From Escherichia phage vB_vPM_PD06, in sequence record NC_052653.1: a stretch of 64,000 bases of DNA. The stretch is one strand, 5' to 3'. Shown here piece by piece: positions 9,930 to 39,196 of this stretch. The notes below the pieces were generated by a model. The model was not told where the DNA came from. It did no database searches and saw only the letters and a list, made by a program, of their open reading frames with translations. The translations under genes and the position numbers were made by a program. Position 1 is the first letter of the stretch; each line of letters begins with the position of its first letter.

Positions 9930-9934
9930 AAATT

Positions 9935-10010: not shown

Positions 10011-10017
10011 TAAATCT

Positions 10018-10092
10018 TGGCTGGAGATCTAGGAATCGAACCTAGTCATCACGACTTCAAAGGCCGTTGCCTTCCCACTAGGCTAATCTCCA
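10018..10092 (-). tRNA. tRNA-Gln (anticodon TTG)
   Basis: Acceptor TGGAGAT/ATCTCCA, anticodon arm ACGGC-CTTTGAA-GTCGT, T-arm CTAGG-TTCGATT-CCTAG, CCA encoded. Confidence 0.8.
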
Positions 10093-10523
10093 ATAAATTA
10101 CTTCAGTGTTACCACAAAGTGACGAACTGCTTTTCGTGCAGCAGAAGCCAGAGGCTTAGCATACTTAAGTTCATCTTTTTCCATTATAAATTCTCTTTTA
10201 AATGAAAATGCAGGACTTATTGGCATTGCCTGCGCAAGCCCTCAAGGGGAACATAGGTTTTTGGATATTTAACGACCAGGATAACCATAAACCCGTCATC
10301 ATTCACATTCAAGAGGTACACCATAAAACTGCCGGGGTCTTAAAACTATAATGATTCGCAAATCATTAATCAGACAGTTCGATGGCTCCTCGATTTTAGC
10401 TCACACTAAGGCAGTGAATCTCCAATAAACTAAAAAATCACTTAAAAAGAACCGCTAGAGTTTGAAGGAGAAAACCATGAGCGAAAAGAGAAATTTTCTC
10501 TAGCGATTCCATTTAAATAATCT

Positions 10524-10598
10524 TGGAGCGAGTAACAGGACTTGAACCTGCACCTGGAGGGTGGAAACCTCATATGCTACCATTAACACTATACCCGC
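10524..10598 (-). tRNA. tRNA-Gly (anticodon TCC)
   Basis: Acceptor GCGGGTA/TACTCGC, anticodon loop TTTCCAC, T-arm GCAGG-TTCAAGT-CCTGT, CCA encoded. Confidence 0.75.
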
Positions 10599-10653
10599 TT
10601 AACAATATTACTCTAACATACTATTAGCCCCTTTGTCAAGAGGCTTTTGATAC

Positions 10654-10983
10654 TTATTTTAAAATAGTAGATGCACCACGTCTGTTTAGATATGCAATAG
10701 TAAAGTCCAAATCACCTATTTCTTCAGGTTCCCACTGACCTTCTAAGCCATAACAAGAACAATGATATGCGTGTACTTCATAAAACAAAGATGTTTTCAT
10801 ATCATAAAAATAAACGTGAGATTCACCTTCATAATATGCACAATCATAAGTGGCAGAAAGAATTACAATGTTATCCTTATCTAACTCTACTTCATAATAT
10901 CTTTCAACATCTTCAATATCATCAAAACCATCGAAAACATTGATATTAAAATATTTCTCTAACTCTTTTTCTGTCACATACAC
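10654..10983 (-). CDS. Hypothetical protein embedded in tRNA array
   Basis: 109-aa ORF between tRNA-Gly and tRNA-Thr; Cys/Tyr-rich; no motif recognised. Confidence 0.5.
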   Translation of the reverse strand: MYVTEKELEKYFNINVFDGFDDIEDVERYYEVELDKDNIVILSATYDCAYYEGESHVYFYDMKTSLFYEVHAYHCSCYGLEGQWEPEEIGDLDFTIAYLNRRGASTILK

Positions 10984-10990
10984 TCCTTTA

Positions 10991-11065
10991 GAGTTAAAAT
11001 TGGTGCTCCCACAAGGACTCGAACCCTGATAAGTTGCTTACAAGGCAACCGTAATAGCCGTTATA
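10991..11065 (-). tRNA. tRNA-Thr (anticodon TGT)
   Basis: Acceptor GCTCCTA/TGGGAGC, anticodon arm GTTGC-CTTGTAA-GCAAC, T-loop TTCGAGT, CCA encoded. Confidence 0.8.
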
Positions 11066-11071
11066 CGATAG

Positions 11072-11148
11072 GAGCAATACTTGGACTCGGCAGGATTCGA
11101 TACCTGCAATTCCAGAAGCCTCTTGGCGACTGGGGGTTTACCTTAACT
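11072..11148 (-). tRNA. tRNA-like element, identity undetermined
   Basis: Acceptor GGACTTG/CGAGTCC pairs well; T-arm-like GCAGG-TATCGAAT-CCTGC with 8-nt loop; no canonical anticodon arm found by hand; CCA not encoded. Confidence 0.3.
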
Positions 11149-11155
11149 CTACAAG

Positions 11156-11240
11156 TCCATAATTCTGGCGATGGATCAAGGATTTGAACCTTGCTAGAAC
11201 TTTCGTTCACGGATTAACAGTCCGTCGCCCAACCACTAGG
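11156..11240 (-). tRNA. tRNA with anticodon GTT (Asn-type) and long extra arm
   Basis: Acceptor GATGGAT/ATCCATC, anticodon arm ACGGA-CTGTTAA-TCCGT, 15-nt variable region containing hairpin GAAC-GAAA-GTTC, T-loop TTCAAAT, CCA encoded. Confidence 0.55.
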
Positions 11241-11247
11241 CCAATCC

Positions 11248-11334
11248 ATCTTTAATTTGGTGCAGGTAGTTGGACTCGAACCAACGAAGCCCCGAAGGGC
11301 AAGAGATTTACAGTCTCCAGCAATTGCCGCTATG
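11248..11334 (-). tRNA. tRNA-Tyr (anticodon GTA)
   Basis: Acceptor GTAGGTA/TACCTGC, anticodon arm GGAGA-CTGTAAA-TCTCT, long variable arm, T-loop TTCGAGT, CCA encoded. Confidence 0.8.
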
Positions 11335-11339
11335 CGATA

Positions 11340-11415
11340 CCTACGTGTTTGGTACATCGTGAAGGATTCGAACCTTCGACCTTGGAGTTAAAAGCACCTT
11401 GCTCTACCAACTAAG
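11340..11415 (-). tRNA. tRNA-Lys (anticodon TTT)
   Basis: Perfect acceptor ACATCGT/ACGATGT, D-arm GCTT-AGTTGGTA-GAGC, anticodon loop CTTTTAA (stem has two mismatches), T-arm GAAGG-TTCGAAT-CCTTC, CCA encoded. Confidence 0.6.
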
Positions 11416-11559
11416 CTAACGATGTATAAATTATCTTTAAAATAGCCAGTGTTTGCGGCACTTAGCTATGAAGTATTGGGGTATCGGTAAAGTGGTTACC
11501 GCCACTTGCCGAAAGTTTACTCTGCTAAAGTAAGATTACAAGCTACATTAAAGATAACT

Positions 11560-11645
11560 TGGCGGTAGATGTAGGACTTGAACCTACACGCCGTTTCCGA
11601 CGACAGTTTAGCAAACTGTTGTGGCTACCATTTCACCAATCTACC
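11560..11645 (-). tRNA. tRNA-Ser (anticodon GCT)
   Basis: Acceptor GGTAGAT/ATCTACC, anticodon arm ACAGT-TTGCTAA-ACTGT, long variable arm, T-loop TTCAAGT, CCA encoded. Confidence 0.8.
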
Positions 11646-11653
11646 GTTCTTAA

Positions 11654-11806
11654 TTATTCAAAACAACCGGAATCTTTTTGTTCTGCTTTTACCATACGAA
11701 TATTTTTACCATCTTCAGATTGTTGAAGATTAGAATACTCATAAACAACTTTATTATCTACAATCTTAACTCCGGTAACAACCTGTCCAATAGTTTTATA
11801 ATTCAT
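11654..11806 (-). CDS. Small hypothetical protein
   Basis: About 50-aa ORF from ATG (MNYKTIG...) with AGGAG upstream; the longer track ORF would overlap tRNA-Ser. Confidence 0.35.
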   Translation of the reverse strand: MNYKTIGQVVTGVKIVDNKVVYEYSNLQQSEDGKNIRMVKAEQKDSGCFE

Positions 11807-11824
11807 AAAGCTCCTAGTTGAATT

Positions 11825-11914
11825 TGGAGGAAGATAATGGAGTCGAACCATCACCGTATCGCTACAATGGGCCAGGGTTCAAACCTGGTTGCGCACCGCT
11901 GCGCCCTACCTTCC
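11825..11914 (-). tRNA. tRNA-Ser (anticodon TGA)
   Basis: Acceptor GGAAGGT/ATCTTCC, anticodon arm CCAGG-TTTGAAC-CCTGG, long variable arm, T-arm GATGG-TTCGACT-CCATT, CCA encoded. Confidence 0.7.
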
Positions 11915-11975
11915 CGTTATCATACTTTAAATCTAACATAAAACTATCTTGCTTGTCAAGTAGTTTTTAAAACTT

Positions 11976-12057
11976 TTTGGTCGGGGTGACAGGATTCGAA
12001 CCTGCATACTCCAATTACTCGGTTAACGCCTGATTAGAAGTCAGGTGAGATACACCC
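11976..12057 (-). tRNA. Atypical tRNA-like gene, possibly Arg (TCT)
   Basis: Perfect acceptor CGGGGTG/CACCCCG, T-arm GCAGG-TTCGAAT-CCTGT, CCA encoded, hairpin CCTGA-CTTCTAA-TCAGG; no room for a normal D-arm. Confidence 0.4.
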
Positions 12058-12239
12058 CGTTTTCACAGTAACTATAACAAAAAACTAAGTGAATGTCAAG
12101 ATATTTTTACTAAAATTATTATTTAAATTGAAGCCTAGTTATGGAATCGAACCATATTTCGTATTTAGTTAGACAAAGCGGTCTAACATATTTTTCAGGC
12201 TTTGATGGCCTCGGAATTACCAAATACCCTACTAGGCGT

Positions 12240-12325
12240 TGGTGCAAGTGGAGGGATTCGAACCCTCAATCATTTAAGCGTTGCGTTTTAAGCACAATGT
12301 GTATCACCAATTCCACCACACTTGC
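12240..12325 (-). tRNA. tRNA-Leu (anticodon TAA)
   Basis: Perfect acceptor GCAAGTG/CACTTGC, anticodon arm TTGTG-CTTAAAA-CGCAA, long variable arm, T-arm GAGGG-TTCGAAT-CCCTC, CCA encoded. Confidence 0.75.
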
Positions 12326-12356
12326 ATATAGGAGATGCATAGCATCTCCTTTTAAA

Positions 12357-12432
12357 TGGTGGTTCCCCAGGGTTACAATCCCTGCCCTCGACACTTATGA
12401 GGTGTGCGCTCTCGTCAGTGAGCTATGGAACC
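12357..12432 (-). tRNA. tRNA with CAT anticodon (Met or Ile2), non-canonical T-loop
   Basis: D-arm GCTC-ACTGACGA-GAGC, anticodon loop CTCATAA, T-arm CAGGG-ATTGTAA-CCCTG, acceptor GGTTCCA/GGGAACC, CCA encoded. Confidence 0.65.
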
Positions 12433-13179: not shown

Positions 13180-14913
13180 TTAGTCAACCTGGATGGTTCC
13201 CATAGTACGAAGAACCTCTACATCAACACGGTTGCGGATATCAGTGAATGTTTCATCACGACCTTCTACTTGTGGTGTAATAACCTTACCATTCTTGAAG
13301 ATAACTTGTAACTCATTGTCTTCATCCTGGATATCTTTAAAAGAAAGATTATCTACAAGAGAAAGATTACCATTGGTATCATTAACAACCTTAATAAAAC
13401 CTTTTGCAGAGCGTTTACCAGGATCAGTTTTAGGCTCCTTACTTACCAAAATTTCGTGTTCACCGATGATACTACCTGTTGCTTTAACAGCAAAACCAAA
13501 AGTATCTCGTGTATTGAACTGATAAGTATAACTACCAACACCAAATACAATATTGGAAGCTGCAAAACCTTTCTTCTTCAGTCGGCGTAAGATCTCGTGT
13601 TCTCGTTCAACAGTAATAGAATCACCATAAATCATACCGATATGCTGATCAAGAACCTTGTAGCCTTTTCGGTTGATAGTACCACCAAACACTTCCCAAA
13701 GGATTTGAATAGAACCTACTGCTTCACAATAAGGAATCTCATAAGTTTCATCAATACAGTCAGCAACACTGCAATCCTGAAGAACATTGTAATACTTATT
13801 AACATCAGCCAAATGAACTACTTCAGTGGCTGTCGCAATACCATTATTTAAGAGGTCTTGATAGTTATCAAAAGATTCAACATTGTATCCTGCAACAACT
13901 TTAACCGGATCTCCTGAATCTGGACGAATAACAAGACGACCATTTCGTGACATAATGGAATCTTTCAATTCTACCAGAATGCGAGTCAATACAGCCCAAT
14001 AGTCATAAGAGTCTGCTACATATGAACAAAAACCTTCTGGAACAATTTCTTCGATATAACGACGAAGAAACTCTTTTTCTGCTACATAACGAAGCCCATC
14101 TACATCATCTTTAAGATGTGGGAAATGTTTCTTCAGATCTTCAACAATAGATCCAATGTTAGTCGTTGCTACTGAATGTTCTGTTGCCGGAATCGAACCT
14201 GCAACAAACTGATCATAATCAATACCATAATAGTCATGCACAGTTTCAATAGCCAGAATATTATCTGTTCCTGTGAACGATGCCAAGTGAGCGATACCAC
14301 TCTTATAACCATCTTCGATATTACTTAAACCACGTAGGCTAAAATCATGACACTGGAAGTTAACGTGATCAATATTATCACACGTTGCCATCGCATATGC
14401 CATAGCGATACGCTTATACTGAAAAGCTGCTGTGGCATTAGTCATTGTCTTCCAAGTTTCATCTGACAACAGTGTTTCCACATAGTTAGTTAACCAAAAG
14501 AATTTTTCTAAAGTATTATGCACAGTAAACACAGGAACACCAATAGGACACAAAACACCTTCTGGCAGAGATCGAACTTCCAGCGGAAGATAACCTAAAT
14601 CGTGCAATTCTCCCCAACATTCCGCAGAAGGAGCAGAAGCACCTAACGCATTTTTAGACATACGATAAAATTTATTTACTGCTGCACTACGAGACATTTT
14701 AAAGAAGCTATCCCACATAGTTACAAGAGCATCAGTGACTGCTCGACGAATACCTAAAACAATCACACCACGTGCTTCACGATCTGCATAGTGTGCAAAG
14801 TTTTTATCATTACGAGGAGTTAAATTAGAGAAAATAAGTTTTGTATTTTGGTTGTACATCTGCTTGTGACCAGGTTTGTACCAATCAGTAGCAAAAGGTG
14901 CAAAAATATTCAT
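13180..14913 (-). CDS. nadV: Nicotinamide phosphoribosyltransferase (NAMPT)
   Basis: 577 aa; N-terminal MNIFAPFATDWYKPGHKQMY and overall length typical of NAMPT family. Confidence 0.85.
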   Translation of the reverse strand: MNIFAPFATDWYKPGHKQMYNQNTKLIFSNLTPRNDKNFAHYADREARGVIVLGIRRAVTDALVTMWDSFFKMSRSAAVNKFYRMSKNALGASAPSAECWGELHDLGYLPLEVRSLPEGVLCPIGVPVFTVHNTLEKFFWLTNYVETLLSDETWKTMTNATAAFQYKRIAMAYAMATCDNIDHVNFQCHDFSLRGLSNIEDGYKSGIAHLASFTGTDNILAIETVHDYYGIDYDQFVAGSIPATEHSVATTNIGSIVEDLKKHFPHLKDDVDGLRYVAEKEFLRRYIEEIVPEGFCSYVADSYDYWAVLTRILVELKDSIMSRNGRLVIRPDSGDPVKVVAGYNVESFDNYQDLLNNGIATATEVVHLADVNKYYNVLQDCSVADCIDETYEIPYCEAVGSIQILWEVFGGTINRKGYKVLDQHIGMIYGDSITVEREHEILRRLKKKGFAASNIVFGVGSYTYQFNTRDTFGFAVKATGSIIGEHEILVSKEPKTDPGKRSAKGFIKVVNDTNGNLSLVDNLSFKDIQDEDNELQVIFKNGKVITPQVEGRDETFTDIRNRVDVEVLRTMGTIQVD

Positions 14914-14984: not shown

Positions 14985-15878
14985 TTAAAAATTCCACACG
15001 TATGGAGATACAATTTGTTGTTGCAAATCTGACTGATTCTTAACAAGAACACCAGAATCTTCTTGGATGTTATCTTCCCACACATTAAGAGAATGAATGC
15101 AGTCAAAGTGCTCACTTAACTCTTTAAGACCTTTAGAAAAGATACCGTGTGTAACATATAGCTCAATCTTACCTGCGTTACGAGCACGTAGCACTTTAGC
15201 CAATTCGATAAAAGTTCTACCACCATCACAGATATCATCTACGATCATCAGGTTACGCTTATTGAAATCCTGTACAGAAATGTCTGTACGAACAATAGCA
15301 CCTGTTGCGGTATCTCTAACCTTCTCTGCACAGAACACATCTAAAGACATTTTCTTAGATAATTTAAATATTTTCTTAAGAGCACCACCATCAGGGCTAA
15401 CAAGAGCAAAATTCTCCATACGTAACTTCCACTTTAAAGTTTCGTAAGCAATCTCTTCTTGAGGCATTACACAGAGTCTGTCAAACACTGCTGGAGTAAC
15501 ATCACTATGCGGATCAGCAACGATAACACGTGAGAAATTTAATGAATTAATTATAGAAGCAAATGCTTTAACTCCGAATGCTTCCCCAGGCTCACACACT
15601 CTGTCTTGTCGTGCATACGGCACATACAACATGAGTAAATCAACACAATATGGTTTATGATATAGCATATTGTCCAATGCATTCTTAGTCATAACCAAAG
15701 TCATCAAGTCTTTAGCAGATCTTACTTCTAAAGTGAGTAAGATTCTGTCTGTAGCATGATTGAAACCTGATAGATTCGTATCTAATTGAACATGTTGTTC
15801 TCCACCAGAGAATGTAAACACTTTAACGTCTACATCAGTAACATAACAGTCAACACCATGCAGAATACTAACTTTCAT
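14985..15878 (-). CDS. prs: Ribose-phosphate pyrophosphokinase (PRPP synthetase)-like
   Basis: YARQDR motif, SPDGG, and PRPP-binding loop MIVDDICDGGRT. Confidence 0.8.
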   Translation of the reverse strand: MKVSILHGVDCYVTDVDVKVFTFSGGEQHVQLDTNLSGFNHATDRILLTLEVRSAKDLMTLVMTKNALDNMLYHKPYCVDLLMLYVPYARQDRVCEPGEAFGVKAFASIINSLNFSRVIVADPHSDVTPAVFDRLCVMPQEEIAYETLKWKLRMENFALVSPDGGALKKIFKLSKKMSLDVFCAEKVRDTATGAIVRTDISVQDFNKRNLMIVDDICDGGRTFIELAKVLRARNAGKIELYVTHGIFSKGLKELSEHFDCIHSLNVWEDNIQEDSGVLVKNQSDLQQQIVSPYVWNF

Positions 15879-18421: not shown

Positions 18422-18781
18422 ATGTGCGCTACTAATCAACATGATATTTGTTACCAACCTCTTACTTGGATTGGTGAGGATCACTATGCTCAACGTGTTA
18501 TAGTCTGCGCTGCGAATAAGTATATTCTCAACAATGGCGAAGAGTTAATTATTCCTTGTGTTAGGCATGCAAATCCTGTACTATCTGCACAACTTAATGT
18601 TTTAAAAGATGCAGGATTGATCGATAAACTGTTTTGCTTACCTGATAATCAAGGGTTTATTGATCAATATTATAATTGGTGGAGTCGCAAAGATGCTTAT
18701 ATCATTGCAGATAACGCCAAACAAATTAACTATGAAAGAAATGGTCACGACAGTGAACTATTCAGCGAGGGATTATACTAA
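18422..18781 (+). CDS. Hypothetical protein
   Basis: ATG at 18422 (MCATNQHD...), about 119 aa. Confidence 0.45.
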   Translation: MCATNQHDICYQPLTWIGEDHYAQRVIVCAANKYILNNGEELIIPCVRHANPVLSAQLNVLKDAGLIDKLFCLPDNQGFIDQYYNWWSRKDAYIIADNAKQINYERNGHDSELFSEGLY

Positions 18782-19332
18782 TGTTTATTACAAGTGATTT
18801 GCATTTTATGCACAAACGTATTCGAGAGTTTGCTCCTGAATATCGCCCGTGGGAAGATATGGAGCATATGACAGAAGCACTGATTGAAGCATGGAATAAA
18901 TGTGCTACGAGTCCTGGTGTCAAGATGTGGCATTTGGGCGACTTCTGTTTCGGGACTGAAGAAGATACCCGTAAAATTGCTTCACGTCTTCAAGGTGATA
19001 TCACTTACTGTGTTGGGAACCATGATTACAGCAAACACCGAGAAGTGCTTGCAGAATATGGCGAGGTGGTGTATTATGACGAAGTGAAATATCAGAAACT
19101 GTTCTTCGTCTTAAGTCATTACCCTATGGCTGCTTGGAATAAACAAGGGCATGGATCAATCATGCTACACGGGCACTCTCACGGATCATTCCCTGATCAT
19201 TTGTATGGGAAAATGTTGGATGTTGGTTGGGATGCACACGGAAAAATCTTGCATTTTGACGAAATCATCTCTATTATGGATAAGCGTGATATTGTTGTTG
19301 TAGACCATCATAAGATAATCAAAGGAGATTAA
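18781..19332 (+). CDS. Calcineurin-like metallophosphoesterase
   Basis: Motifs SDLHFMH, GDFCFG, GNHD, then His-rich HGHSHG. Confidence 0.7.
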   Translation: MFITSDLHFMHKRIREFAPEYRPWEDMEHMTEALIEAWNKCATSPGVKMWHLGDFCFGTEEDTRKIASRLQGDITYCVGNHDYSKHREVLAEYGEVVYYDEVKYQKLFFVLSHYPMAAWNKQGHGSIMLHGHSHGSFPDHLYGKMLDVGWDAHGKILHFDEIISIMDKRDIVVVDHHKIIKGD

Positions 19333-19333
19333 G

Positions 19334-20266
19334 GTGGCTAAGTTCAATTGTGATGACCTGATTGCAAAAGGTTTAGTGCATAAAAAAGAAGTTAAATCTG
19401 GAGAGTATGCTGGTCTTGCTGTACTTAAATACAAAAACAATGTATTCTGGGATAACTTGTGGAACGTTGACAAACGACTCCTAGATTGTCGTGGGTTGGT
19501 TGTTGACTCAGAAGACAATGTTGTTATCTGGCCTTTTACTAAAATCTTTAATCGTTTTGAGAATGGTACAGATCTTCCAGCAGACCAGCTTGTAGATGCT
19601 GTCCGTAAAGTAAACGGTTTTATGGCATCTGTAGGTGTGTACAAAGGGCAACTTATTGTATCAACAACAGGGAGCCTAGAGTCAGATTTTGCAACTCTTG
19701 CCAAGAACCATATTGTTTCCGAGTGTGATGACATAGAATATTTCATTAAGTGGACAGAAAGTGCAAAAGCAACTTTCCTTTTTGAAATCTGTGATCCTTC
19801 TGATCCACATATTGTCGAAGAAGAACCAGGCGCATACTTAATTGGAGCAAGAATTCAAAATCTTGATGGGACAAGTTTCATGCTACCCGAAGGTGTGCTT
19901 GATGGGATTGCATCTATTACAAAATTTAAACGTCCTGAAGTTTATCCGATGATTAAATTTTCAGATGTTGTTGAAATGTCTAAACATTGTAAGCACGAAG
20001 GGTTTGTTGTTCGGGAAACAAACTATCCGTTTAACTTGCTGTTAAAGATTAAGTCACCATATTATCTTGCTAAGAAATTCCTTATGCGTGGTGGCAATAA
20101 GAAGTGGGATATGATTTGGGACAACCCAAAAAATGCTAAACAAATTGTTGACGAAGAATATTATACTTTGCTAGAATGGCTTCGAAACAACTTTACTAAG
20201 ACTCAATGGGCTGCTTTAGATCCACAAGAGCGACGTAAAGAAATAGAAAACTTCTTTGGAGGCTAA
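19334..20266 (+). CDS. Polynucleotide ligase, RNA-ligase-like
   Basis: Nucleotidyltransferase motifs: I VRKVNGF (KxNG), IV HEGFVVRE, V LLKIKSPYY; GTG start with GGAG upstream. Confidence 0.6.
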   Translation: MAKFNCDDLIAKGLVHKKEVKSGEYAGLAVLKYKNNVFWDNLWNVDKRLLDCRGLVVDSEDNVVIWPFTKIFNRFENGTDLPADQLVDAVRKVNGFMASVGVYKGQLIVSTTGSLESDFATLAKNHIVSECDDIEYFIKWTESAKATFLFEICDPSDPHIVEEEPGAYLIGARIQNLDGTSFMLPEGVLDGIASITKFKRPEVYPMIKFSDVVEMSKHCKHEGFVVRETNYPFNLLLKIKSPYYLAKKFLMRGGNKKWDMIWDNPKNAKQIVDEEYYTLLEWLRNNFTKTQWAALDPQERRKEIENFFGG

Positions 20267-20671
20267 ATGAAACAACTTATCATTTTACGTGGTGTTTCAG
20301 GTGCAGGTAAATCTACAGTAGCAGAAATTATTTCTGAAGGTTATTGGCCTATCTGTGAGGCAGATCAATATCATTACACAGAAAGTGGTGTTTACGATTG
20401 GAAGCCAGAGAATGTAGGTAAAGCACACGCATGGTGTCAGAGTATTGTTCGTGATGCTATGGTATCTAATATTAAAAAGATTATTGTCTCTAACACTTCA
20501 ACCACAGAGAAAGAACTTAAACCTTATTTAACTCTTGCTGAAGAGTTTGGTTATCAAGTTATCTCCTTAGTTGTTGAAAATAGGCACGGTAACGACTCAA
20601 TTCATGAGGTTCCACAACATACTCGTGATCAGCAAGAGAAACGTCTTCGCAGTTCACTTAAGCTACAATAA
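20267..20671 (+). CDS. P-loop kinase, polynucleotide-kinase-like
   Basis: Walker A GVSGAGKST near N-terminus; 134 aa; start abuts ligase stop. Confidence 0.6.
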   Translation: MKQLIILRGVSGAGKSTVAEIISEGYWPICEADQYHYTESGVYDWKPENVGKAHAWCQSIVRDAMVSNIKKIIVSNTSTTEKELKPYLTLAEEFGYQVISLVVENRHGNDSIHEVPQHTRDQQEKRLRSSLKLQ

Positions 20672-20680
20672 GGAGAGTGT

Positions 20681-21001
20681 ATGGAAATTTATTCTGGTGA
20701 AGGTAAGTATTTTACAGTAGTCGATAATGGTGAAATTATTATTTATCGCTACGGAAGTGAGTGGAGGAACGAGACAGGAGACGGTTATATCTTATCTTTG
20801 CTCCGTTTGATTAATGATCTTACGGAAGAACTTGAAGAAACAAAACGTTCATATGATGATCAAGTAGATTCATTAGAAAACATTATTTCAGATCTAAATG
20901 AAGAAGTTTGTTATTTGAGTGGACAAGTTTCAGAGTTAACACTGGAATGTGAAGATTTAGGTGATGTTATTGCAGATTTAAATGAACGTCTTAAGGATTA
21001 A
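20681..21001 (+). CDS. Hypothetical protein
   Basis: 106-aa ORF, acidic C-terminal half. Confidence 0.45.
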   Translation: MEIYSGEGKYFTVVDNGEIIIYRYGSEWRNETGDGYILSLLRLINDLTEELEETKRSYDDQVDSLENIISDLNEEVCYLSGQVSELTLECEDLGDVIADLNERLKD

Positions 21002-23455: not shown

Positions 23456-23478
23456 AAGCCCCTTCGGGGGCTTATTGG
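23456..23478 (+). terminator. Rho-independent terminator (weak U-tract)
   Basis: AAGCCCC-TTCG-GGGGCTT hairpin right after stop. Confidence 0.5.
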
Positions 23479-23485
23479 AGGTATT

Positions 23486-25038: not shown

Positions 25039-26073
25039 GTGGCGTTCCAAGCATCTTCGGCTTTAGAACAAAGAAAAATCCACGCTGTACACAAGGCTTC
25101 CGGTAATGTAAAAGAGTTTGAAACAAGAACAGATTTTTGGGGTAAATCTTCAAAAAATATTGGAGGATGGTTAGGAGCACTTAACGCGCAACGCGAAGCT
25201 GCTGGTAAGAAGTTGTTCTCTAGAGAAGATTTTGAAATAAAAGATGTTCAAATAGTCCCAGATAATATTTCTTTTACGTTTCAAGCTGCAAAGACAAAAA
25301 TAACCCAGATGATGGATCACCTAAAACTTCAAAAGTATTGCGGTGTCATCGGGGTAGGAAAAACCTTCCGGCATTCTTTCAAAATGCCAAAAGAATATAA
25401 ATCAGAACGATCAGATTTAAGACCAATCCATTTATCAGATACTAAAGATTATCTAGTTGAAAAACATAACGGTGACGTTGTTACTGGTATTGAGGCAGAT
25501 GATGCTTTAGAAATCTATGGATATGCAGGGTATAAAGCCTACAAGGAAACTGGTAAGTTTTCTCATATTGTAGCATCTATCGACAAAGATAGCTTGCACA
25601 CACCAAGTTTACTCTTTAACTTTTATAAAGAGGATGGTGTTTATAAAAATCCTTGTATTATTCTGATTGATGAATCTATTGGTGATATCTGGATCGTAGA
25701 AAAAGGTAAGAAAAAAGAAATTAAGGGTTGGGGTAGTTACTGGTTAGCTTATCAAATGCTAATGGGTGATAAGACAGATAGTATTCGACCTTACCAAGAT
25801 TTCGATGTTAAGTTTGGAGATATTACTTGCTTTAATCTTATTTCCAAATGTAAAACACAGGCTGAACTTTTTCAGACAGTTAAAGATCAGTATTATGAAT
25901 GGTTCCCAGATGGCGTTAAATTTACTTCTTGGGATGGTGAAGAAGTAGAGATGACAACTGACGAATGGATAGAGACAATTTTTCAGTTGGTATATATGAA
26001 ACGTTGGGCGAATGATGAAACAACTTTTGAAAGTATGCTACAAGCATATATTTCAGAGCAGGAGGAACATTGA
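25039..26073 (+). CDS. 5'-3' exonuclease / flap endonuclease
   Basis: Motifs GIEADDALEIYG and SIDKD; upstream frame stays open back to 24943 with no ATG, so true start is probably a non-ATG codon near 24955 just after AGGAGG. Confidence 0.6.
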   Translation: MAFQASSALEQRKIHAVHKASGNVKEFETRTDFWGKSSKNIGGWLGALNAQREAAGKKLFSREDFEIKDVQIVPDNISFTFQAAKTKITQMMDHLKLQKYCGVIGVGKTFRHSFKMPKEYKSERSDLRPIHLSDTKDYLVEKHNGDVVTGIEADDALEIYGYAGYKAYKETGKFSHIVASIDKDSLHTPSLLFNFYKEDGVYKNPCIILIDESIGDIWIVEKGKKKEIKGWGSYWLAYQMLMGDKTDSIRPYQDFDVKFGDITCFNLISKCKTQAELFQTVKDQYYEWFPDGVKFTSWDGEEVEMTTDEWIETIFQLVYMKRWANDETTFESMLQAYISEQEEH

Positions 26074-27032
26074 GTAAATTAACAGACGAACAGAAAGCCT
26101 TGATTGTATCTATGAAAGCACAAGGTTATTCTTCGCGTAAGATTGCACAAGAGGTGTTGGGAAGTTCTACTAAGAAGAGCACAGTAAATGATTACTTAGC
26201 TCGTGTAAATTCACCACATCGCGGTGCTCCGCAAGATAAAGGTGGGCCAGTAATTAAAATTATTGACGTAGAGACAGCACCTGAGATTGTGTATAGCTTC
26301 TCACGTTTCAAAGCCTTTATTGCACCTGAACAAGTTATTCGTCGAGGTTACTTGCTTTCCTATTCATCTGCTGATTTAGAAACAGGAGAAGTAGAAGGTA
26401 AGAACCTTAGCAATTACCCTCTGTTTGACATAGATCATACAGATGATTGGGAATTATGTCAAGATCTGTGGCACTTGCTTGACGATGCAGATATTGTGAT
26501 CGCGCACAACGGTATTAAGTTTGATAAGGCTTATATTAACCAACGTTTTGCTTTTCACGGTATGGAGCCACCATCACACTATGTTGTAATTGATACACTC
26601 AAGGTAGCTAAGAAGCAGTTTGCACTACCTTCTAATGCGCTTAAAGAAATGTGTTTGTATTTTGATACAGAAAACTTTAAACTTGATAATGAAGGTTTTC
26701 CTTTGTGGAAAGCATGTTGTGAAGGAGACAGACACGCCTTCTTCCGTATGCAAACATACAACGATGGTGATGTTGTTTCTCTCAGAGATCTTTACATCAA
26801 ACTTCGTGCGTGGATTCCACAACATCCTAACGTATCTGCATTCTATGACGATGAAAAACTTCGTTGTCCTCGTTGCGGTAAAGAGCACCTTGAAGTTGTT
26901 CCTGGTAAGGTTTACACAACAGCGGTTAGTACATTCCAAGTGCTAAGATGCACATCATGTAATAGCCTGTCTCGTGGACGTGTTAATTTGCGTAGCAAAG
27001 AGAAGCGTGTAAACACTGTTATTGGAATTTAA
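26070..27032 (+). CDS. HTH domain fused to DnaQ-like 3'-5' exonuclease with C-terminal zinc ribbon
   Basis: N-terminal HTH-like SSRKIAQEV; exonuclease motifs IDVETAPE and IAHNGIKFD; C-terminal CPRCG...CTSCN. Confidence 0.5.
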   Translation: MSKLTDEQKALIVSMKAQGYSSRKIAQEVLGSSTKKSTVNDYLARVNSPHRGAPQDKGGPVIKIIDVETAPEIVYSFSRFKAFIAPEQVIRRGYLLSYSSADLETGEVEGKNLSNYPLFDIDHTDDWELCQDLWHLLDDADIVIAHNGIKFDKAYINQRFAFHGMEPPSHYVVIDTLKVAKKQFALPSNALKEMCLYFDTENFKLDNEGFPLWKACCEGDRHAFFRMQTYNDGDVVSLRDLYIKLRAWIPQHPNVSAFYDDEKLRCPRCGKEHLEVVPGKVYTTAVSTFQVLRCTSCNSLSRGRVNLRSKEKRVNTVIGI

Positions 27033-27035
27033 TAA

Positions 27036-27062
27036 AAAGGGGCGAAAGCCCCTTTATTTTTG
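27036..27062 (+). terminator. Rho-independent terminator
   Basis: AAAGGGGC-GAAA-GCCCCTTT followed by ATTTTT. Confidence 0.7.
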
Positions 27063-27070
27063 GAGGATTT

Positions 27071-27472: not shown

Positions 27473-27650
27473 ACAATACGGAGAGGGTGAAGTATATAAA
27501 ATATACAATAAACGTGGAGATAAACTCCTATATACAATCACAATCCCAGAAAACATGTGTAAGGCTGGTTTAGACCGTATGCTTTTCTTTAAATATAACA
27601 TTCCACCTGGAGATTATGTAGCTAAAAAGGTGAGCACTATTGGAAAATAA
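27456..27650 (+). CDS. Hypothetical protein
   Basis: 64-aa ORF. Confidence 0.4.
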   Translation: MASHGKQYGEGEVYKIYNKRGDKLLYTITIPENMCKAGLDRMLFFKYNIPPGDYVAKKVSTIGK

Positions 27651-28215
27651 AGAACCTAAAGTTATTTGGGGAGATGGAACACCTTGGAAAACTCAAGCAG
27701 CCTTTTATACATATTTAAGGGGTTGCTTAAGGAAAGCATGGGTGAGACACCCGAATAAGATAAAAAAGATCCAATCTGTACGATTTAAAGCCGATAGATT
27801 GGATAAAGACGGCAATGTAGTTTTAGATAAGAAAACAGGCAAACCGAAACAGGTTTGGAATTGTCAATGTGAATTGTGTGGACATACAGGAGGTATGAAA
27901 GACTTTCAAGTAGACCATATTAATGCAGCAGGTACATTAACCTGTTATGAAGATATCCCAAGTTTTGTTTTACGCCTATTGTATGTAACAGAAGACGACC
28001 TGCGTGTAGTTTGTAAGCAGTGTAACGCTATCCTAGCTTATGCTGACAAGCACGATATGACATTCAGGGAAGCAAAAGCGGAGAAGGAAGCGATAGCTTT
28101 ATGCCAGTCTAAAAAGGATAAAAATTGGCTAACGAAGCGCGGAATTTCACCAGAAAGTACAGTAAGTAAGCGAAGAAAACAAATAGTAAAAATTCTTCTT
28201 GACGAAGAGAAATAA
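27640..28215 (+). CDS. HNH endonuclease-like protein
   Basis: CQCELCGH ... DHINAAG ... CKQCN arrangement. Confidence 0.5.
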   Translation: MENKEPKVIWGDGTPWKTQAAFYTYLRGCLRKAWVRHPNKIKKIQSVRFKADRLDKDGNVVLDKKTGKPKQVWNCQCELCGHTGGMKDFQVDHINAAGTLTCYEDIPSFVLRLLYVTEDDLRVVCKQCNAILAYADKHDMTFREAKAEKEAIALCQSKKDKNWLTKRGISPESTVSKRRKQIVKILLDEEK

Positions 28216-35740: not shown

Positions 35741-35938
35741 ATGATGCTAGATCAACTGATCAATGCTCCTCGCGTAACAGTAAGTCCAAAAACATTTGCA
35801 TCACTTTTAGAAGATGCTAGAGAGGTTTATAACTTTACTGAAGAAGAGCTTCCTGTTCCTGTTGAAAAAGGTTCCAGATGGTTGTTTTATGAAGGTATTA
35901 TTTTTACTGAAGGGAATAATTGGAAGGAGACTAAATGA
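35741..35938 (+). CDS. Hypothetical protein
   Basis: ATG at 35741 with GGAGGA upstream; 65 aa. Confidence 0.4.
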   Translation: MMLDQLINAPRVTVSPKTFASLLEDAREVYNFTEEELPVPVEKGSRWLFYEGIIFTEGNNWKETK

Positions 35939-36924
35939 AATACTTAGTAACAGGTGGTTTAGGCTTTATTGGAAGTGCGGTAGTTCGTTTCCTAGCTAAA
36001 AATACTAAGAATGATATTTACGTTATAGATAAATGGGGTTACGCTTCAGACCCTAGAAATTTATCAGAAACACCTAATGTAAAGTTTTGTCGTGTTGACT
36101 TGACAAATGCTCAGTTAACTGCTAAGATTGTGGCAGATGTTAACCCAGATTATATAATGCATCTTGCAGCAGAAAGTCACGTAGATAATTCAATAGCATC
36201 ACCGAGTGTTTTTATAAATTCAAATATTGTTGGAACATTTAATCTTCTAGAAGCTGTTCGTTTAATGGGAGATAAATCAAATCTTAAAATGTTTCATCAT
36301 ATTTCAACAGATGAAGTGTATGGTGATATGGAAGAAGGGGATTATCCGTTTACAGAACAGAATCCTTATAAACCAAGTAGTCCATATGCTGCATCTAAAG
36401 CTGCAAGCGATCATTTGGTAAGAGCGTGGCATCGTACTTATGGTATTCCGACAGTTATAACAAATTGTTCAAATAATTTTGGAGCGTATCATCATCCAGA
36501 AAAACTAATACCTAAAACGATAACAAATATCTTGATGCATAAACCAATCCCTGTTTATGGCAATGGTCTTCAAGTAAGAGACTGGCTATACGTTGACGAT
36601 CACGCAGAAGCATTACACCTAGTAGTAACTAAAGGCAAATCTGGAGAAACATATAATATTGGGAGCAGAAACCCTAGAACTAATATTGATGTAATCTATA
36701 TGATTTGTGATTATATGGATGCGGTATATCCATCTGAAACAGATGCTTGTAGCCTCATTGAGATGGTTACAGATAGGCCTGGGCATGATCTAAGATATGA
36801 AGTGAATCCTTATAAGATTGAAAAGGAATTAGGGTGGAAAGCTAAAGGCACATTTGAAGAAAAACTTTATTCAACCATTGATTGGTATGTAGATAACAAA
36901 GAGTGGTGGGAAAATAAAGTTTAA
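35935..36924 (+). CDS. rmlB: dTDP-glucose 4,6-dehydratase
   Basis: N-terminal TGGLGFIGS Rossmann motif, catalytic YAASK, STDEVYG. Confidence 0.85.
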
Positions 36925-36932
36925 GGAGGAGT

Positions 36933-37802
36933 ATGAAAGGTATTATCTTAGCAGGTGGTAGTGGAACAAGACTTTACCCAGTTACTAAAGGGGTTAGTAA
37001 ACAACTATTACCAATTTATGATAAGCCTATGATTTATTATCCACTCTCTGTCCTAATGCTTTCTGGAATTAGGGAAATACTAATAATTACAACACCAGAA
37101 GATCAAATTAATTTTGTAAATCTTCTAGGTGATGGTTCTTCTTTTGGTATTTCCCTACAGTATGCAATACAGGATAGTCCAAGAGGTTTAGCAGAAGCGT
37201 TTATTATTGGTGAGAACTTTATTGGTGAAGATTCTGTAGCACTTGTGCTAGGTGATAATTTATTCTTTGGTCAGAGTTTTGGTAGCATTTTAGATTCTGC
37301 TAAAGAACATATTGAAAAGAATGGTGGAGCTAATATTTTTGGGTATCACGTAAATGATCCTGAAAGATTTGGTGTTGTTGAGTTTGATTCTGAAGGTACA
37401 GTGGTAAGTATTGAAGAAAAACCAAAAGCACCAAAAAGCAACTATGCAATTACAGGCTTGTACTTTTACGATAATTCTGTTATACAGAAAGCTAAAAGCG
37501 TTAAGCCTTCTGCTAGAGGGGAGTTAGAGATTACAGATATAAATGAGATGTACTGGAAAGAAAAGGCTTTACGTGTCTGTAAGCTAGGAAGAGGTTTCAC
37601 TTGGCTGGATACAGGAACACATGAAAGTCTTATGGAAGCATCTCAATTTGTTCATGCAATAGAAAAGCAACAAGGTATGAAGGTTGCATGCCTAGAAGAG
37701 ATTGCTTTTAAAAATGAATGGATTACTTTAGATTCTGTAAAAAGTTCTGGAGAGGTTTTAAGTAAAACAGACTACGGCAAGTATTTACTTAAATTAAAAT
37801 AA
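36933..37802 (+). CDS. rmlA: Glucose-1-phosphate thymidylyltransferase
   Basis: N-terminal [16 protein letters not shown] and [18 protein letters not shown]. Confidence 0.9.
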
Positions 37803-37814
37803 GGGGGAGATTAA

Positions 37815-38369
37815 ATGATTCAAGCAACAAAAATCGAAGATTTGTTGATCATTCAACCTGACGTTTACGGGGATGAACGTGGTTTTTTCTTAGAAAGTTT
37901 TAATCAGGCTTTATATGATCAATACATAGGTAAACAAAACTTTGTCCAAGATAACCATTCACGTTCTATTCGAGGAGTTCTACGTGGGCTTCATTTTCAA
38001 AAGAAAAACCCACAAGGGAAGTTAGTACGTTGTGTTCGTGGTGAAGTTTATGATGTTGCTGTAGATATTAGGGTTGGTAGTCCAACATTTGGAGAATGGG
38101 TAGGTGTTCTTTTATCTGAAAAGAATAAAACACAATTTTGGATTCCTCCTGGTTTCGCTCATGGCTTTGTTGTGATTAGCGACATTGCTGATTTTGAATA
38201 TAAATGTACAGAATATTACGATCCGACTTCAGAGTGTAGTCTTGCGTGGAATGATCCAGATATCAATATAGATTGGGGTTTTGATTTAATCTTTAATGAT
38301 ATTAATTTTAAACCTATCTTGTCACAAAAAGATCAGGAAGCCAAAACACTAAAGGAGATCATATTTTGA
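37815..38369 (+). CDS. rmlC: dTDP-4-dehydrorhamnose 3,5-epimerase
   Basis: DERGFFLESF, RGLHFQ, WIPPGFAHGF cupin motifs; 184 aa. Confidence 0.85.
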   Translation: MIQATKIEDLLIIQPDVYGDERGFFLESFNQALYDQYIGKQNFVQDNHSRSIRGVLRGLHFQKKNPQGKLVRCVRGEVYDVAVDIRVGSPTFGEWVGVLLSEKNKTQFWIPPGFAHGFVVISDIADFEYKCTEYYDPTSECSLAWNDPDINIDWGFDLIFNDINFKPILSQKDQEAKTLKEIIF

Positions 38370-39196
38370 CAAAATTTTTAATCTTTGGTTCAAAAGGTCA
38401 ATTAGGACAATCTTTGGCAAAAGTTGCACCAGAAGATGTTATTTTGATTGAAGCAAGTGATATAGACATTACCAACTTTAAAGATGTTATGAATAGTCTT
38501 GTACAGCACGTGCCTGATGTTGTTGTGAATTGTGCGGCTTACACGGCAGTAGATAAAGCTGAAGAAGATGTTAACACCTGTATAAATGTTAATGCATACG
38601 GTGCAACAAACATTGCCAAAGCATGTAATGATTTACTGATACAGTTTGTACATATTTCAACAGACTATGTTTTTGATGGACATGTTGCTGGCACAGAAGA
38701 GAGTAAAACAAACCCCTTGAACACCTACGGTTACAGTAAACAATTAGGTGAAACTTTAGTACAAGCAGTTTGTCCTACAGCACTTATTATCAGAACAGCT
38801 TCTGTTTATAGTGAATTTGGACATAACTTTTTGAAAACTATGTTGGAACGCTACAACGGTGGTCAAAAAGAATTTAATGTAGTATGTGATCATTTATCAT
38901 GTCCTACTTATGCACCTGATCTTGCAGAAACAATTTTTAAACTTGTAAAAGATGGTGTAAATAGTAAAATTGTACACTATGCAGGTGCAGATTATATTTC
39001 TTGGTATGATTTTGCACGTAAGATATTTCTTGTTATAGATTTGTCTGTTACAGTTAATCCTGTATCTGCTTCAACCTATAATTCTAAAGCAGTCAGACCA
39101 GCAACATCTTATTTAAAAACAGATCCTACTTTAAATCCGCGAAGTGTTGATAGCGGTATTGTAAGAACTTTAACTATACTTTTAAACAAGGAGTGA
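38366..39196 (+). CDS. rmlD: dTDP-4-dehydrorhamnose reductase
   Basis: N-terminal LIFGSKGQLGQ, NCAAYTAVDKAE, STDYVFDG; TTG start overlapping rmlC stop. Confidence 0.8.
   Translation: MTKFLIFGSKGQLGQSLAKVAPEDVILIEASDIDITNFKDVMNSLVQHVPDVVVNCAAYTAVDKAEEDVNTCINVNAYGATNIAKACNDLLIQFVHISTDYVFDGHVAGTEESKTNPLNTYGYSKQLGETLVQAVCPTALIIRTASVYSEFGHNFLKTMLERYNGGQKEFNVVCDHLSCPTYAPDLAETIFKLVKDGVNSKIVHYAGADYISWYDFARKIFLVIDLSVTVNPVSASTYNSKAVRPATSYLKTDPTLNPRSVDSGIVRTLTILLNKE

What the first reader, a model, noticed from the sequence alone, without database searches (positions are those of the whole stretch)
26070..27032. HTH - DnaQ-like exonuclease - zinc-ribbon fusion protein
A single 320-aa ORF combines an N-terminal helix-turn-helix-like segment, a DEDD-type exonuclease core (IDVETAPE, IAHNGIKFD) and a C-terminal CxxC...CxxC ribbon. 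This is not a standard proofreading subunit; it could be a targeted nuclease degrading host nucleic acids or signalling nucleotides.
Basis: inference. Interest (0 to 1): 0.5.

Follow-up and report, generated by a model that had tools for sequence, protein, structure and literature searches.

The report
Stand-alone phage 3'-5' DNA exonuclease
This gene of a phi92-like E. coli phage encodes a DNA-binding helix-turn-helix, a polymerase-B-type 3'-5' exonuclease and a zinc ribbon in one protein; it belongs to a very large, already catalogued phage family whose exact job has never been tested experimentally.

Summary
ORF 26070-27032 (+, TTG start, 320 aa) has three parts: an N-terminal three-helix HTH, a DEDD exonuclease core with every catalytic residue, and a C-terminal CxxC...CxxC zinc ribbon.

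It is not new. The window is a Justusliebigvirus (phi92-like) coliphage, and the gene is more than 99% identical to genes annotated in over 20 GenBank phages as "DnaQ-like 3'-5' exonuclease" or "DNA polymerase exonuclease subunit". It matches PHROG 403 over its full length (E=4e-108) and passes Pfam PF13482. The family has about 3,000 clusters at 50% identity.

Three refinements:
- The zinc ribbon is integral to the family. The HTH is an optional DNA-binding add-on, replaced by HTH_23 or NUMOD1 in relatives and absent in the ~255-aa forms.
- A related phage's own PolA keeps its Exo I-III motifs, so a missing proofreader is not being supplied.

The gene is translationally coupled to a FEN 5'-3' exonuclease. 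In 30 of 80 viral loci it sits in the order PolA, FEN, EndoVII/HNH, Exo.

Most likely it is a polymerase-independent 3'-5' DNA exonuclease for phage DNA processing or salvage. Degradation of signalling nucleotides has no support. Interest is low to moderate.

The parts
26060..26065 (+). Shine-Dalgarno AGGAGG, 4 nt upstream of the TTG start
   Evidence: Read directly from the sequence.
26070..27032 (+). Complete CDS, 320 aa plus stop: HTH, DEDDy exonuclease and Zn ribbon
   Evidence: ORF list. PHROG 403 over the full length, E=3.8e-108. Annotated at the same coordinates in near-identical phages.
26070..26210 (+). N-terminal three-helix HTH DNA-binding domain (aa 1-47)
   Evidence: AF2 helices at 6-17, 22-30 and 33-47 with pLDDT 88-96. 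Weak hits to HTH_38 and DUF7626. The profile hits resolvase, NarL and SB-transposase HTH domains. Absent in ~255-aa homologues. Replaced by HTH_23 or NUMOD1 in others.
26211..26249 (+). Flexible linker (aa 48-60)
   Evidence: pLDDT below 50 at residues 51-54, and variable in the alignment.
26250..26819 (+). DEDDy 3'-5' exonuclease core (aa 61-250). Exo I is D66/E68 (26265-26273), Exo II is H146-D152 (26505-26525), and Exo III is Y230-D234 (26757-26771)
26847..26990 (+). C-terminal zinc ribbon (aa 260-307) with C266, C269, C294, C297 and conserved R302
   Evidence: The cysteines and R302 are at least 90% conserved. AF2 strands at 274-283, 288-294 and 300-306. Weak Zn-ribbon family hits.
27036..27065 (+). 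Terminator-like hairpin AAAGGGGC-GAAA-GCCCCTTT followed by a T-run, 4 nt after the stop
   Evidence: Consensus scan. The phiTE homologue is likewise followed by an annotated terminator.
25039..26073 (+). Upstream FEN-type 5'-3' exonuclease, translationally coupled by the TTGA overlap
   Evidence: PHROG 107 E=3e-54. A family profile hits the Taq 5'-nuclease domain (5e-9) and T5 exonuclease 1exn (2e-3).
27640..28215 (+). Downstream HNH / endonuclease VII-like nuclease. In other phages the counterpart lies between FEN and the exonuclease
   Evidence: PHROG 1985 HNH E=3e-66, plus a weak EndoVII PHROG 1035 hit. Synteny survey.

Best explanation
The gene encodes an active, metal-dependent 3'-5' exonuclease that works on DNA independently of a polymerase.

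- **Catalytic core:** a DEDDy domain with the fold of the proofreading domain of family-B DNA polymerases. Exo I D66/E68, Exo II D152 and Exo III D234 would hold two Mg2+/Mn2+ ions. Y230 would position the attacking water, and nucleotides would be removed one at a time from a 3'-OH end. This chemistry is inferred from the DEDD family.
- **Zn ribbon:** the C-terminal Cys4 ribbon is part of the family's conserved core. It probably grips the nucleic acid or a partner protein (inferred).
- **HTH:** the N-terminal HTH is an optional, flexibly tethered DNA-binding module. It most likely anchors the enzyme on duplex DNA (inferred).
- **Expression:** the gene closes a transcription unit and is translationally coupled to a FEN 5'-3' exonuclease.
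- **Proposed role:** with FEN and an HNH/EndoVII-type nuclease it supplies the opposite-polarity end trimming. That means removing 3' flaps and overhangs, and resecting nicked or cut DNA. This is needed to mature branched replication and recombination intermediates. The same activity could help convert cut host DNA into nucleotides for the adjacent salvage genes (Tk, ThyX, RNR).

The architecture, catalytic residues, fold, family size and synteny are shown. The substrate, polarity and biological role are inferred.
For: - **Catalytic residues:** all DEDDy residues are invariant across homologues down to 27% identity.
- **DNA-binding accessory modules:** these are HTH here, HTH_23 or NUMOD1 in relatives.
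- **Neighbours in the window:** a 4-nt start/stop overlap with a FEN-type 5'-3' exonuclease. An RdgC-like protein and a MazG-like (PRA-PH) pyrophosphatase lie upstream. The near-identical phages also annotate a DNA ligase upstream and Tk, ThyX and RNR genes downstream.
- **Conserved gene order:** in 30 of 80 IMG/VR loci a FEN lies upstream on the same strand. In 28 of these an EndoVII/HNH also lies upstream, and 21 have a PolA further upstream. The same order is seen in phiKMV-like Paidla, phiTE, Mangalyan and HP1.
- **Importance of Exo II:** inteins sit exactly inside the Exo II motif in four homologues. Such insertions are typical of conserved sites in replication and repair proteins.
- **One experimental hint:** overexpression of the distant homologue Girr gp37 is moderately toxic to M. 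smegmatis (PMC11075535).
Against: - No enzymatic or genetic data for any close family member were found in the literature searches.
- 50 of 80 loci lack the FEN/EndoVII context. There the commonest neighbours are endolysin-type peptidases, so the synteny is lineage-dependent.
- The roles of the Zn ribbon and the HTH are pure inference. The model's domain geometry could not be inspected.
Confidence: 0.55

Rival explanations
1. Nucleotide scavenger, a functional analogue of T4 exonuclease A (DexA). Its main role would be to digest host chromosome fragments, made by phage endonucleases, down to dNMPs that feed phage DNA synthesis.
For: - It sits just upstream of genes annotated as thymidine kinase, thymidylate synthase (ThyX type) and class I RNR, and downstream of a MazG-like (PRA-PH) pyrophosphatase.
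- FEN plus EndoVII/HNH plus a 3'-5' exonuclease resembles the endonuclease-plus-exonuclease logic of T7 genes 3 and 6 (established knowledge; synteny).
- Overexpressed Girr gp37 is toxic to the host.
Against: - The family also occurs in temperate actinophages such as Girr, next to lysis genes, where wholesale host DNA degradation is not expected.
- An HTH and a Zn ribbon are not obviously needed for bulk degradation.
- No host-DNA-degradation data exist for phi92-like phages in the papers searched.
Confidence: 0.22
2. Trans-acting proofreading subunit, as the database name 'DNA polymerase exonuclease subunit' implies. It would dock on the phage PolA, or on host Pol III, and edit misincorporated 3' nucleotides.
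For: - The core has the fold of polymerase proofreading domains.
- In 21 of 80 viral loci, and in phiKMV-like phages, it shares an operon with PolA.
- The annotated Paidla PolA starts after the Exo I motif.
Against: - The PolA of the 99%-identical phage JohannJBalmer keeps FDIES, HNIINFD and YxxxD aligned to T7 gp5 D5/E7/D65/D174, and lies ~85 kb away on the opposite strand.
- 13 of the 16 polymerases aligned from loci or phages carrying the family keep an Exo I D-x-E. The exceptions are Paidla, whose annotated start lies after the motif, Jaek and L059.
- Jaek Pol I has a Pfam-detected exonuclease domain.
- No DNA polymerase is annotated in the part of Girr examined.
- Epsilon-specific features are absent: Tyr instead of His, and NCBIfam scores far below cut-off.
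Confidence: 0.1
3. Counter-defence nuclease. It would destroy a host immune molecule: cyclic or linear oligonucleotide signals, or defence-made ssDNA or cDNA such as retron msDNA or DRT products.
For: - There is a weak partial hit to the candidate defence family PDC-S48 (E=2e-5, residues 129-202 only).
- The genome carries other metabolic counter-measure-like genes, such as the NAD salvage genes.
Against: - No known anti-defence family matched.
- The PADLOC hit covers only the generic Exo II region.
- The family is core-like, with 3,070 clusters at E<=1e-30, and is syntenic with replication nucleases. It is not in the variable accessory regions typical of anti-defence genes.
- Its accessory domains bind DNA.
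- The literature search found nothing.
Confidence: 0.06
4. RNA 3'-5' exonuclease, RNase D- or RNase T-like. It would trim phage tRNA precursors or decay host or phage RNA.
For: - The phage carries 15 tRNA genes, and the near-identical phages annotate an RNA ligase and a polynucleotide kinase upstream.
Against: - In the small phage genomes surveyed the gene travels with DNA nucleases, not with RNA-processing genes.
Confidence: 0.05

Closest known systems
PHROG 403 'DNA polymerase exonuclease subunit', also labelled SEA-PHAGES 'DnaQ-like exonuclease' and UniProt 'YprB RNase H-like domain protein' (e.g. Pseudomonas phage LKA1 Q0E5Y0, ICP1 gp189, JG068 gp24, JohannJBalmer bas62_0225)
   Same: Same family and same full-length architecture. 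The PHROG match covers residues 5-319 of 320. It is 99.7% nt identical to ECGD1 and PHB05. The BFVD top hit is LKA1, at E 3e-30 and TM 0.76.
   Different: Nothing of substance differs. The family name implies a polymerase subunit role, which the evidence here does not support for this phage.
3'-5' proofreading exonuclease domain of family-B DNA polymerases (archaeal PolB, Pol epsilon, E. coli Pol II, RB69/T4 gp43)
   Different: It has no palm, fingers or thumb domains, so it is a stand-alone 320-aa protein. It carries an HTH and a Zn ribbon instead. Sequence identity is only 15-18%.
E. coli DnaQ (Pol III epsilon) and the PolC exonuclease domain
   Same: Same DEDD superfamily. The Exo II region aligns (profile E 4e-6 to 5e-5). 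This similarity is the source of the 'DnaQ-like' annotations.
   Different: Epsilon is DEDDh (His-x4-Asp), whereas this protein has Tyr230-x3-Asp234. The epsilon equivalog models score 28 bits against a 196-bit cut-off. It has no epsilon C-terminal alpha-binding tail, and a Zn ribbon takes its place.
Bacillus subtilis MrfB (YprB), the characterised member of Pfam PF13482
   Same: Same Pfam family. The profile hits PDB 8un9 at E=0.0036 over the exonuclease core. Both are stand-alone repair-type 3'-5' DNA exonucleases (PMC11194089).
   Different: MrfB is described as DEDDh and works with the MrfA helicase (PMC11194089, abstract). The phage protein is DEDDy, has an HTH and a Zn ribbon, and is linked to FEN and EndoVII rather than to a YprA-type helicase.
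Phage T4 exonuclease A (DexA)
   Same: A possible functional analogue: a phage-encoded stand-alone 3'-5' DNA exonuclease outside the replisome (my own knowledge, not tested here).
   Different: Sequence or structural relatedness was not examined here. To my knowledge DexA has no HTH or Zn ribbon.

Membership tests
DEDD (DnaQ-like) 3'-5' exonuclease superfamily | Exo I motif D-x-E | tested here: met
   D66 and E68 are invariant in 41 sequences.
DEDD (DnaQ-like) 3'-5' exonuclease superfamily | Exo II acidic residue (N-x2-3-F/Y-D) | tested here: met
   H146-N147-G-I-K-F151-D152. D152 is invariant and N147 is at least 90% conserved.
DEDD (DnaQ-like) 3'-5' exonuclease superfamily | Exo III Y/H-x3-4-D | tested here: met
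   Y230-N-D-G-D234, with both Y230 and D234 invariant. This places it in the DEDDy subclass.
DEDD (DnaQ-like) 3'-5' exonuclease superfamily | RNase H-like alpha/beta fold | tested here: met
DEDD (DnaQ-like) 3'-5' exonuclease superfamily | Metal-dependent 3'-5' exonuclease activity | not testable with these tools
   Needs a biochemical assay.
DnaQ / Pol III epsilon proofreading subunit (strict sense) | DEDDh signature (His in Exo III) | tested here: not met
   Tyr230 is invariant at that position.
DnaQ / Pol III epsilon proofreading subunit (strict sense) | Passes the curated equivalog models | tested here: not met
   NF004316 scores 28.4 bits against a 196 cut-off. TIGR01406 scores 22.3 against 222.7.
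DnaQ / Pol III epsilon proofreading subunit (strict sense) | Partner polymerase that lacks its own editing site | tested here: not met
   The PolA of the 99%-identical phage JohannJBalmer keeps Exo I, II and III residues aligned to T7 gp5.
Pfam PF13482 RNase_H_2 (YprB/MrfB-like) | Score above the gathering threshold | tested here: met
   28.4 bits against a cut-off of 22, E=1.8e-6, residues 110-245. Precomputed PF13482 is present on nearly all homologues.
PHROG 403 | Full-length profile match | tested here: met
   E=3.8e-108, residues 5-319 on profile positions 3-319 of 321.
Family-B DNA polymerase | Exonuclease domain of PolB type | tested here: met
Family-B DNA polymerase | Polymerase palm, fingers and thumb domains | tested here: not met
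   The protein ends 70 residues after Exo III with a Zn ribbon. It gives no polymerase-domain hit.
MrfB-type repair exonuclease | DEDDh core and a cognate MrfA (YprA) helicase partner | tested here: not met
   The core is DEDDy. No YprA-type helicase is annotated within 12 kb. The relation is only distant (E=0.0036).
Cys4 zinc ribbon | Two CxxC knuckles on a beta-hairpin/three-strand ribbon | tested here: met
   C266-x2-C269 and C294-x2-C297 are at least 90% conserved. Strands at 274-283, 288-294 and 300-306. Metal binding itself is not testable here.
Known anti-defence or defence nucleases (PADLOC-DB) | Significant full-length match to a defence-system protein | tested here: not met
   Only PDC-S48 matched, at E=2e-5, and only over residues 129-202, the generic Exo II region.

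The most novel reading that the evidence does not exclude
The PHROG 403 family could be an uncharacterised, polymerase-independent third nuclease of a conserved phage 'FEN - EndoVII/HNH - 3'-5' Exo' DNA-maturation module. It would have been built by capturing a PolB-type proofreading domain and fusing it to a Zn ribbon, plus an HTH in large myoviruses. The fused domains would give it site- or structure-specific targeting. Possible targets are 3' flaps at branch points before packaging, or defence-made ssDNA. On this reading the widespread database label 'DNA polymerase exonuclease subunit' would be wrong for thousands of phage genes.
Probability: 0.2. Interest if true: 0.5.

Novelty: already known. 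Interest (0 to 1): 0.27.

Why it matters
The gene itself is ordinary and already annotated. The family is nonetheless very large: about 3,000 clusters at 50% identity, found in phi92-like, rV5-like, phiKMV-like, ICP1-like and PAK_P1-like phages, Zobellviridae and many actinophages. It carries inteins in its catalytic motif, and no experimentally defined function turned up in the literature searched.

[quoted passage not shown] It is DEDDy and PolB-like, and it co-exists with polymerases that keep their own editing motifs. One biochemical and genetic study, for example in BASEL phage Bas62 or LUZ19, would fix the annotation of thousands of phage genes. It would also clarify how phages process 3' ends during replication, recombination and host-DNA recycling.

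Tried and rejected
1. **Missing-proofreader hypothesis.** I located the DNA polymerase in the 99%-identical phage JohannJBalmer. Aligned to T7 gp5 it keeps Exo I, II and III, so the idea was rejected for this phage. phmmer of the polymerase N-terminus against the PDB found nothing, so the motif alignment was used instead.
2. **An apparent exception.** The annotated Paidla (phiKMV-like) PolA seemed to lack Exo I. Nine related viral-contig polymerases do carry D-x-E when read stop-to-stop. I therefore treat the Paidla case as an annotation or start-site issue, not as evidence.
3. **Defence or anti-defence link.** PADLOC gave only a partial generic hit. Literature searches for DnaQ-like or DEDDy phage anti-defence enzymes found nothing relevant.
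4. **Serine-integrase directionality factors.** The 'editing exonuclease' there is Bxb1 gp47, which has a calcineurin-like fold and is unrelated.
5. **Characterised homologues.** Searches on phi92, phAPEC8, phiKMV and mycobacteriophages gave only annotations and one overexpression-toxicity screen.
6. **Iterated profiles for FEN and EndoVII.** They did not raise the synteny count beyond 30 of 80 loci. The other 50 loci have different neighbours, often endolysins.
7. **Similarity of the Zn ribbon to Lar restriction-alleviation proteins.** The E-values were 0.001-0.06. I judged this to be generic CxxC...CxxC resemblance.
8. **Things that could not be done.** The afdb50 fold library was unavailable. 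phmmer of the FEN and HNH neighbours against the PDB found nothing. A family profile then identified the FEN.
Full report
**What is there**

The ORF is exactly as described: 26070..27032 on the + strand, 320 codons, with a TTG start. An AGGAGG ribosome-binding site lies 4 nt upstream. The TTG overlaps the TGA stop of the preceding 344-aa ORF (TTGA), the classic arrangement for translational coupling. Four nucleotides after the stop there is a GC-rich hairpin followed by a T-run (27036-27055 plus tail). The gene therefore appears to close a transcription unit. Its homologue in Pectobacterium phage phiTE is also followed by an annotated terminator.

**Where the window comes from**

The gene is 99.2-99.7% identical at the nucleotide level to more than 20 GenBank phages of the genus Justusliebigvirus (phi92-like, Stephanstirmvirinae), including ECGD1, PHB05, muut and JohannJBalmer. 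In those records it is already annotated as 'DnaQ-like 3'-5' exonuclease', 'DNA polymerase exonuclease subunit', 'exonuclease' or 'putative DNA polymerase'. By tblastn, 1,584 phage records carry a relative. These include rV5-like and phiTE-like myoviruses, ICP1 (gp189), PAK_P1-like phages, phiKMV-like podoviruses, Zobellviridae and hundreds of actinophages.

A profile search of 1.84 billion cluster representatives found 8,250 hits at E<=1e-3, 4,994 at E<=1e-10 and 3,070 at E<=1e-30. The protein matches PHROG 403 from end to end (E=3.8e-108) and passes the gathering threshold of Pfam PF13482. PF13482 is the RNase_H_2 family, which contains B. subtilis YprB/MrfB. The finding is real, but it is a member of a large, catalogued family.

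**Anatomy**

I aligned 41 homologues spanning 27-80% identity.
- D66 and E68 (Exo I), D152 (Exo II, HNGxxFD), and Y230 and D234 (Exo III, YNxxD) are invariant. D175, W213, M227 and N254 are also invariant.
- The four cysteines (C266, C269, C294, C297) and R302 are at least 90% conserved. The zinc ribbon is therefore part of the family's core.
- The first ~60 residues are present only in the ~320-aa forms and missing in the ~255-aa forms, which are phiKMV-like phages, Zobellviridae and actinophages.

AlphaFold2 on this alignment gave a confident model (mean pLDDT 93.1, pTM 0.78). It has a three-helix bundle (6-17, 22-30, 33-47), a disordered linker (51-54), an alpha/beta core, and a three-stranded C-terminal ribbon.

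The N-terminal bundle looks like resolvase, LuxR or transposase HTH domains. In other family members the same position holds HTH_23 or NUMOD1 modules. Whatever sits at the N-terminus is a DNA-binding module.

**Which kind of exonuclease**

The Exo III tyrosine makes this a DEDDy enzyme, like the editing domains of PolA, PolB and RNase D. It is not a DEDDh enzyme like epsilon, RNase T or MrfB.

Structure comparison agrees:
- The Foldseek top 50 in the PDB are nearly all family-B polymerases, aligned on their exonuclease domains (E about 2e-7).

NCBIfam epsilon models score about 28 bits against cut-offs near 200. 'DnaQ-like' is therefore correct only at superfamily level.

**Is it a polymerase subunit?**

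The window contains no DNA polymerase. In the 99%-identical phage JohannJBalmer, the only annotated DNA polymerase found is a T7-like PolA of 859 aa. It lies about 85 kb away on the opposite strand.

The N-terminus of that PolA aligns to the T7 gp5 exonuclease domain, with FDIES matching D5/E7, HNIINFD matching D65, and YYCIYD matching the YNVQD motif (D174). The phage's replicase thus appears to have its own editing site.

More broadly:
- 13 of the 16 polymerases aligned from loci or phages carrying the family keep a D-x-E Exo I. The exceptions are Paidla, whose annotated start lies after the motif, Jaek and L059.
- Arthrobacter phage Jaek has a Pfam-detected exonuclease domain in its Pol I.
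- The temperate mycobacteriophage Girr carries a distant homologue (gp37). No DNA polymerase is annotated in genes 31-103, the region examined.

The name 'DNA polymerase exonuclease subunit' is therefore not supported for this phage.

**Context**

The upstream, translationally coupled gene is a FEN-type 5'-3' exonuclease. It matches PHROG 107, and its family profile hits the Taq 5'-nuclease domain and T5 exonuclease. Further upstream in the window are an RdgC-like protein and a MazG-like (PRA-PH) pyrophosphatase. The near-identical phages also annotate an ATP-dependent DNA ligase there. Downstream are two small unknown ORFs and an HNH/EndoVII-like nuclease, then genes annotated as thymidine kinase, thymidylate synthase and class I RNR.

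I surveyed 80 IMG/VR loci that encode relatives.
- 30 have a FEN upstream on the same strand.
- 28 of these also have an EndoVII/HNH upstream.
- 21 have a PolA further upstream.

The same order, PolA then FEN then EndoVII then Exo, is annotated in Paidla, phiTE, Mangalyan and Pseudoalteromonas phage HP1. The other 50 loci lack this context, and their commonest neighbours are endolysin-type peptidases. That matches the position after the lysis genes seen in Girr and Jaek. The gene thus tends to sit at a module boundary.

**A further sign of importance**

Four ~575-aa homologues carry a ~250-aa insertion exactly inside the Exo II motif (AHN | C ... HN | C-x-x-FD). The insertion has a LAGLIDADG-like block and the canonical Cys1 / His-Asn / Cys+1 splice-junction residues, so it is an intein (weak Pfam support). 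Inteins typically lodge in the most conserved catalytic sites of replication and repair proteins.

**Experimental knowledge**

Searches of 8 million full-text papers found no biochemical or genetic characterisation of this family. They found only annotations, for example JG068 gp24 called 'DNA exonuclease' from an HHpred hit to epsilon. There is also one overexpression screen, in which Girr gp37 was moderately toxic to M. smegmatis. The characterised PF13482 member MrfB is described as a DEDDh repair exonuclease that works with a helicase. It is only distantly related (E=0.0036).

**Interpretation**

The best-supported reading is a polymerase-independent, metal-dependent 3'-5' DNA exonuclease. 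Its captured PolB-type editing domain is equipped with a family-wide Zn ribbon and, in the large myoviruses, a tethered HTH for DNA binding.

It is made together with a FEN of opposite polarity and lies near a structure-specific endonuclease, ligase and RdgC-like protein. It most plausibly trims 3' ends and flaps while branched replication and recombination intermediates are matured. It may also help turn cut host DNA into nucleotides for the adjacent salvage enzymes.

- **Shown:** the architecture, catalytic residues, fold, family size and synteny.
- **Inferred:** the substrate, polarity and biological role.

Rivals, in decreasing order of likelihood:
1. A mainly host-DNA-scavenging role.
2. 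Trans-proofreading.
3. Nothing positive was found for it, and the DNA-binding accessory domains argue against it.
4. RNA 3' trimming.

**Verdict**

The feature is an already-known, already-annotated kind of gene, so novelty is low. The residual interest is that a very large phage family carries a probably misleading functional label and still lacks any experimental study.

Noticed in passing
Homologues P0128, P0191, P0212 and P0221 (aligned to window 26505-26525): Four ~575-aa family members carry a ~250-aa intein inserted exactly within the catalytic Exo II motif (AHN|C...HN|C-x-x-FD). The insertion has Cys1, a LAGLIDADG-like block, a terminal His-Asn and a +1 Cys.
   Followed up: partly
window 9377-12432 (- strand): A cluster of 15 tRNA genes: Ile, Met x2, Leu x2, Phe, Pro, Gln, Gly, Thr, Asn, Tyr, Lys, Ser x2.
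   Followed up: no
window 13180-14913 and 14985-15878 (- strand): Two ORFs that correspond, by size and by position relative to the exonuclease gene, to the nicotinamide phosphoribosyltransferase and ribose-phosphate pyrophosphokinase genes of the near-identical phages. This is an NAD+ salvage pair of the kind discussed as a counter to NAD-depleting defences. The window ORFs themselves were not scanned.
   Followed up: no
window 18781-20700 (+ strand): Phosphoesterase, RNA ligase and polynucleotide kinase genes lie in a row, by the annotation of the near-identical phages. This looks like a tRNA or RNA repair set, a few kb upstream of the DNA ligase and nuclease block.
   Followed up: no
window 35935-39196 (+ strand): Four consecutive genes of a dTDP-rhamnose pathway, by the annotation of the near-identical phages: dTDP-glucose 4,6-dehydratase, glucose-1-phosphate thymidylyltransferase, 3,5-epimerase and reductase. 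This is an unusual cargo for a phage, and its target is unknown; it could be DNA or a surface glycan.
   Followed up: no
window 27640-28215 (+ strand): A 191-aa HNH / endonuclease VII-like protein (PHROG 1985 E=3e-66) lies two small ORFs downstream of the exonuclease. In other lineages the EndoVII lies between FEN and the exonuclease, so the order differs here.
   Followed up: partly
L005 1727-3844 (Pseudomonas phage Paidla DNA polymerase): The annotated PolA starts after the Exo I motif, whereas related viral-contig polymerases read stop-to-stop carry D-x-E. This is probably a mis-called start or a split gene rather than an exonuclease-less polymerase.
   Followed up: partly
L015-L091 (the 50 IMG/VR loci without FEN): In loci lacking the FEN/EndoVII context, the commonest neighbours of the exonuclease are endolysin-type enzymes: Peptidase_M15_4 in 8 ORFs, VanY in 6, plus SLT and Amidase_2. 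This echoes its placement next to lysis genes in Girr, Jaek and Paidla. It is unexplained and may only reflect a module boundary.
   Followed up: partly
L004 15272-18046 (JohannJBalmer, outside the window): The same phage lineage carries an intein-containing UvrD/Rep helicase and a class III anaerobic RNR, by annotation.
   Followed up: no
window 23456-23481: Overlapping terminator-like hairpins on both strands lie between the MazG-like gene and the RdgC-like gene. This is a possible bidirectional terminator.
   Followed up: no
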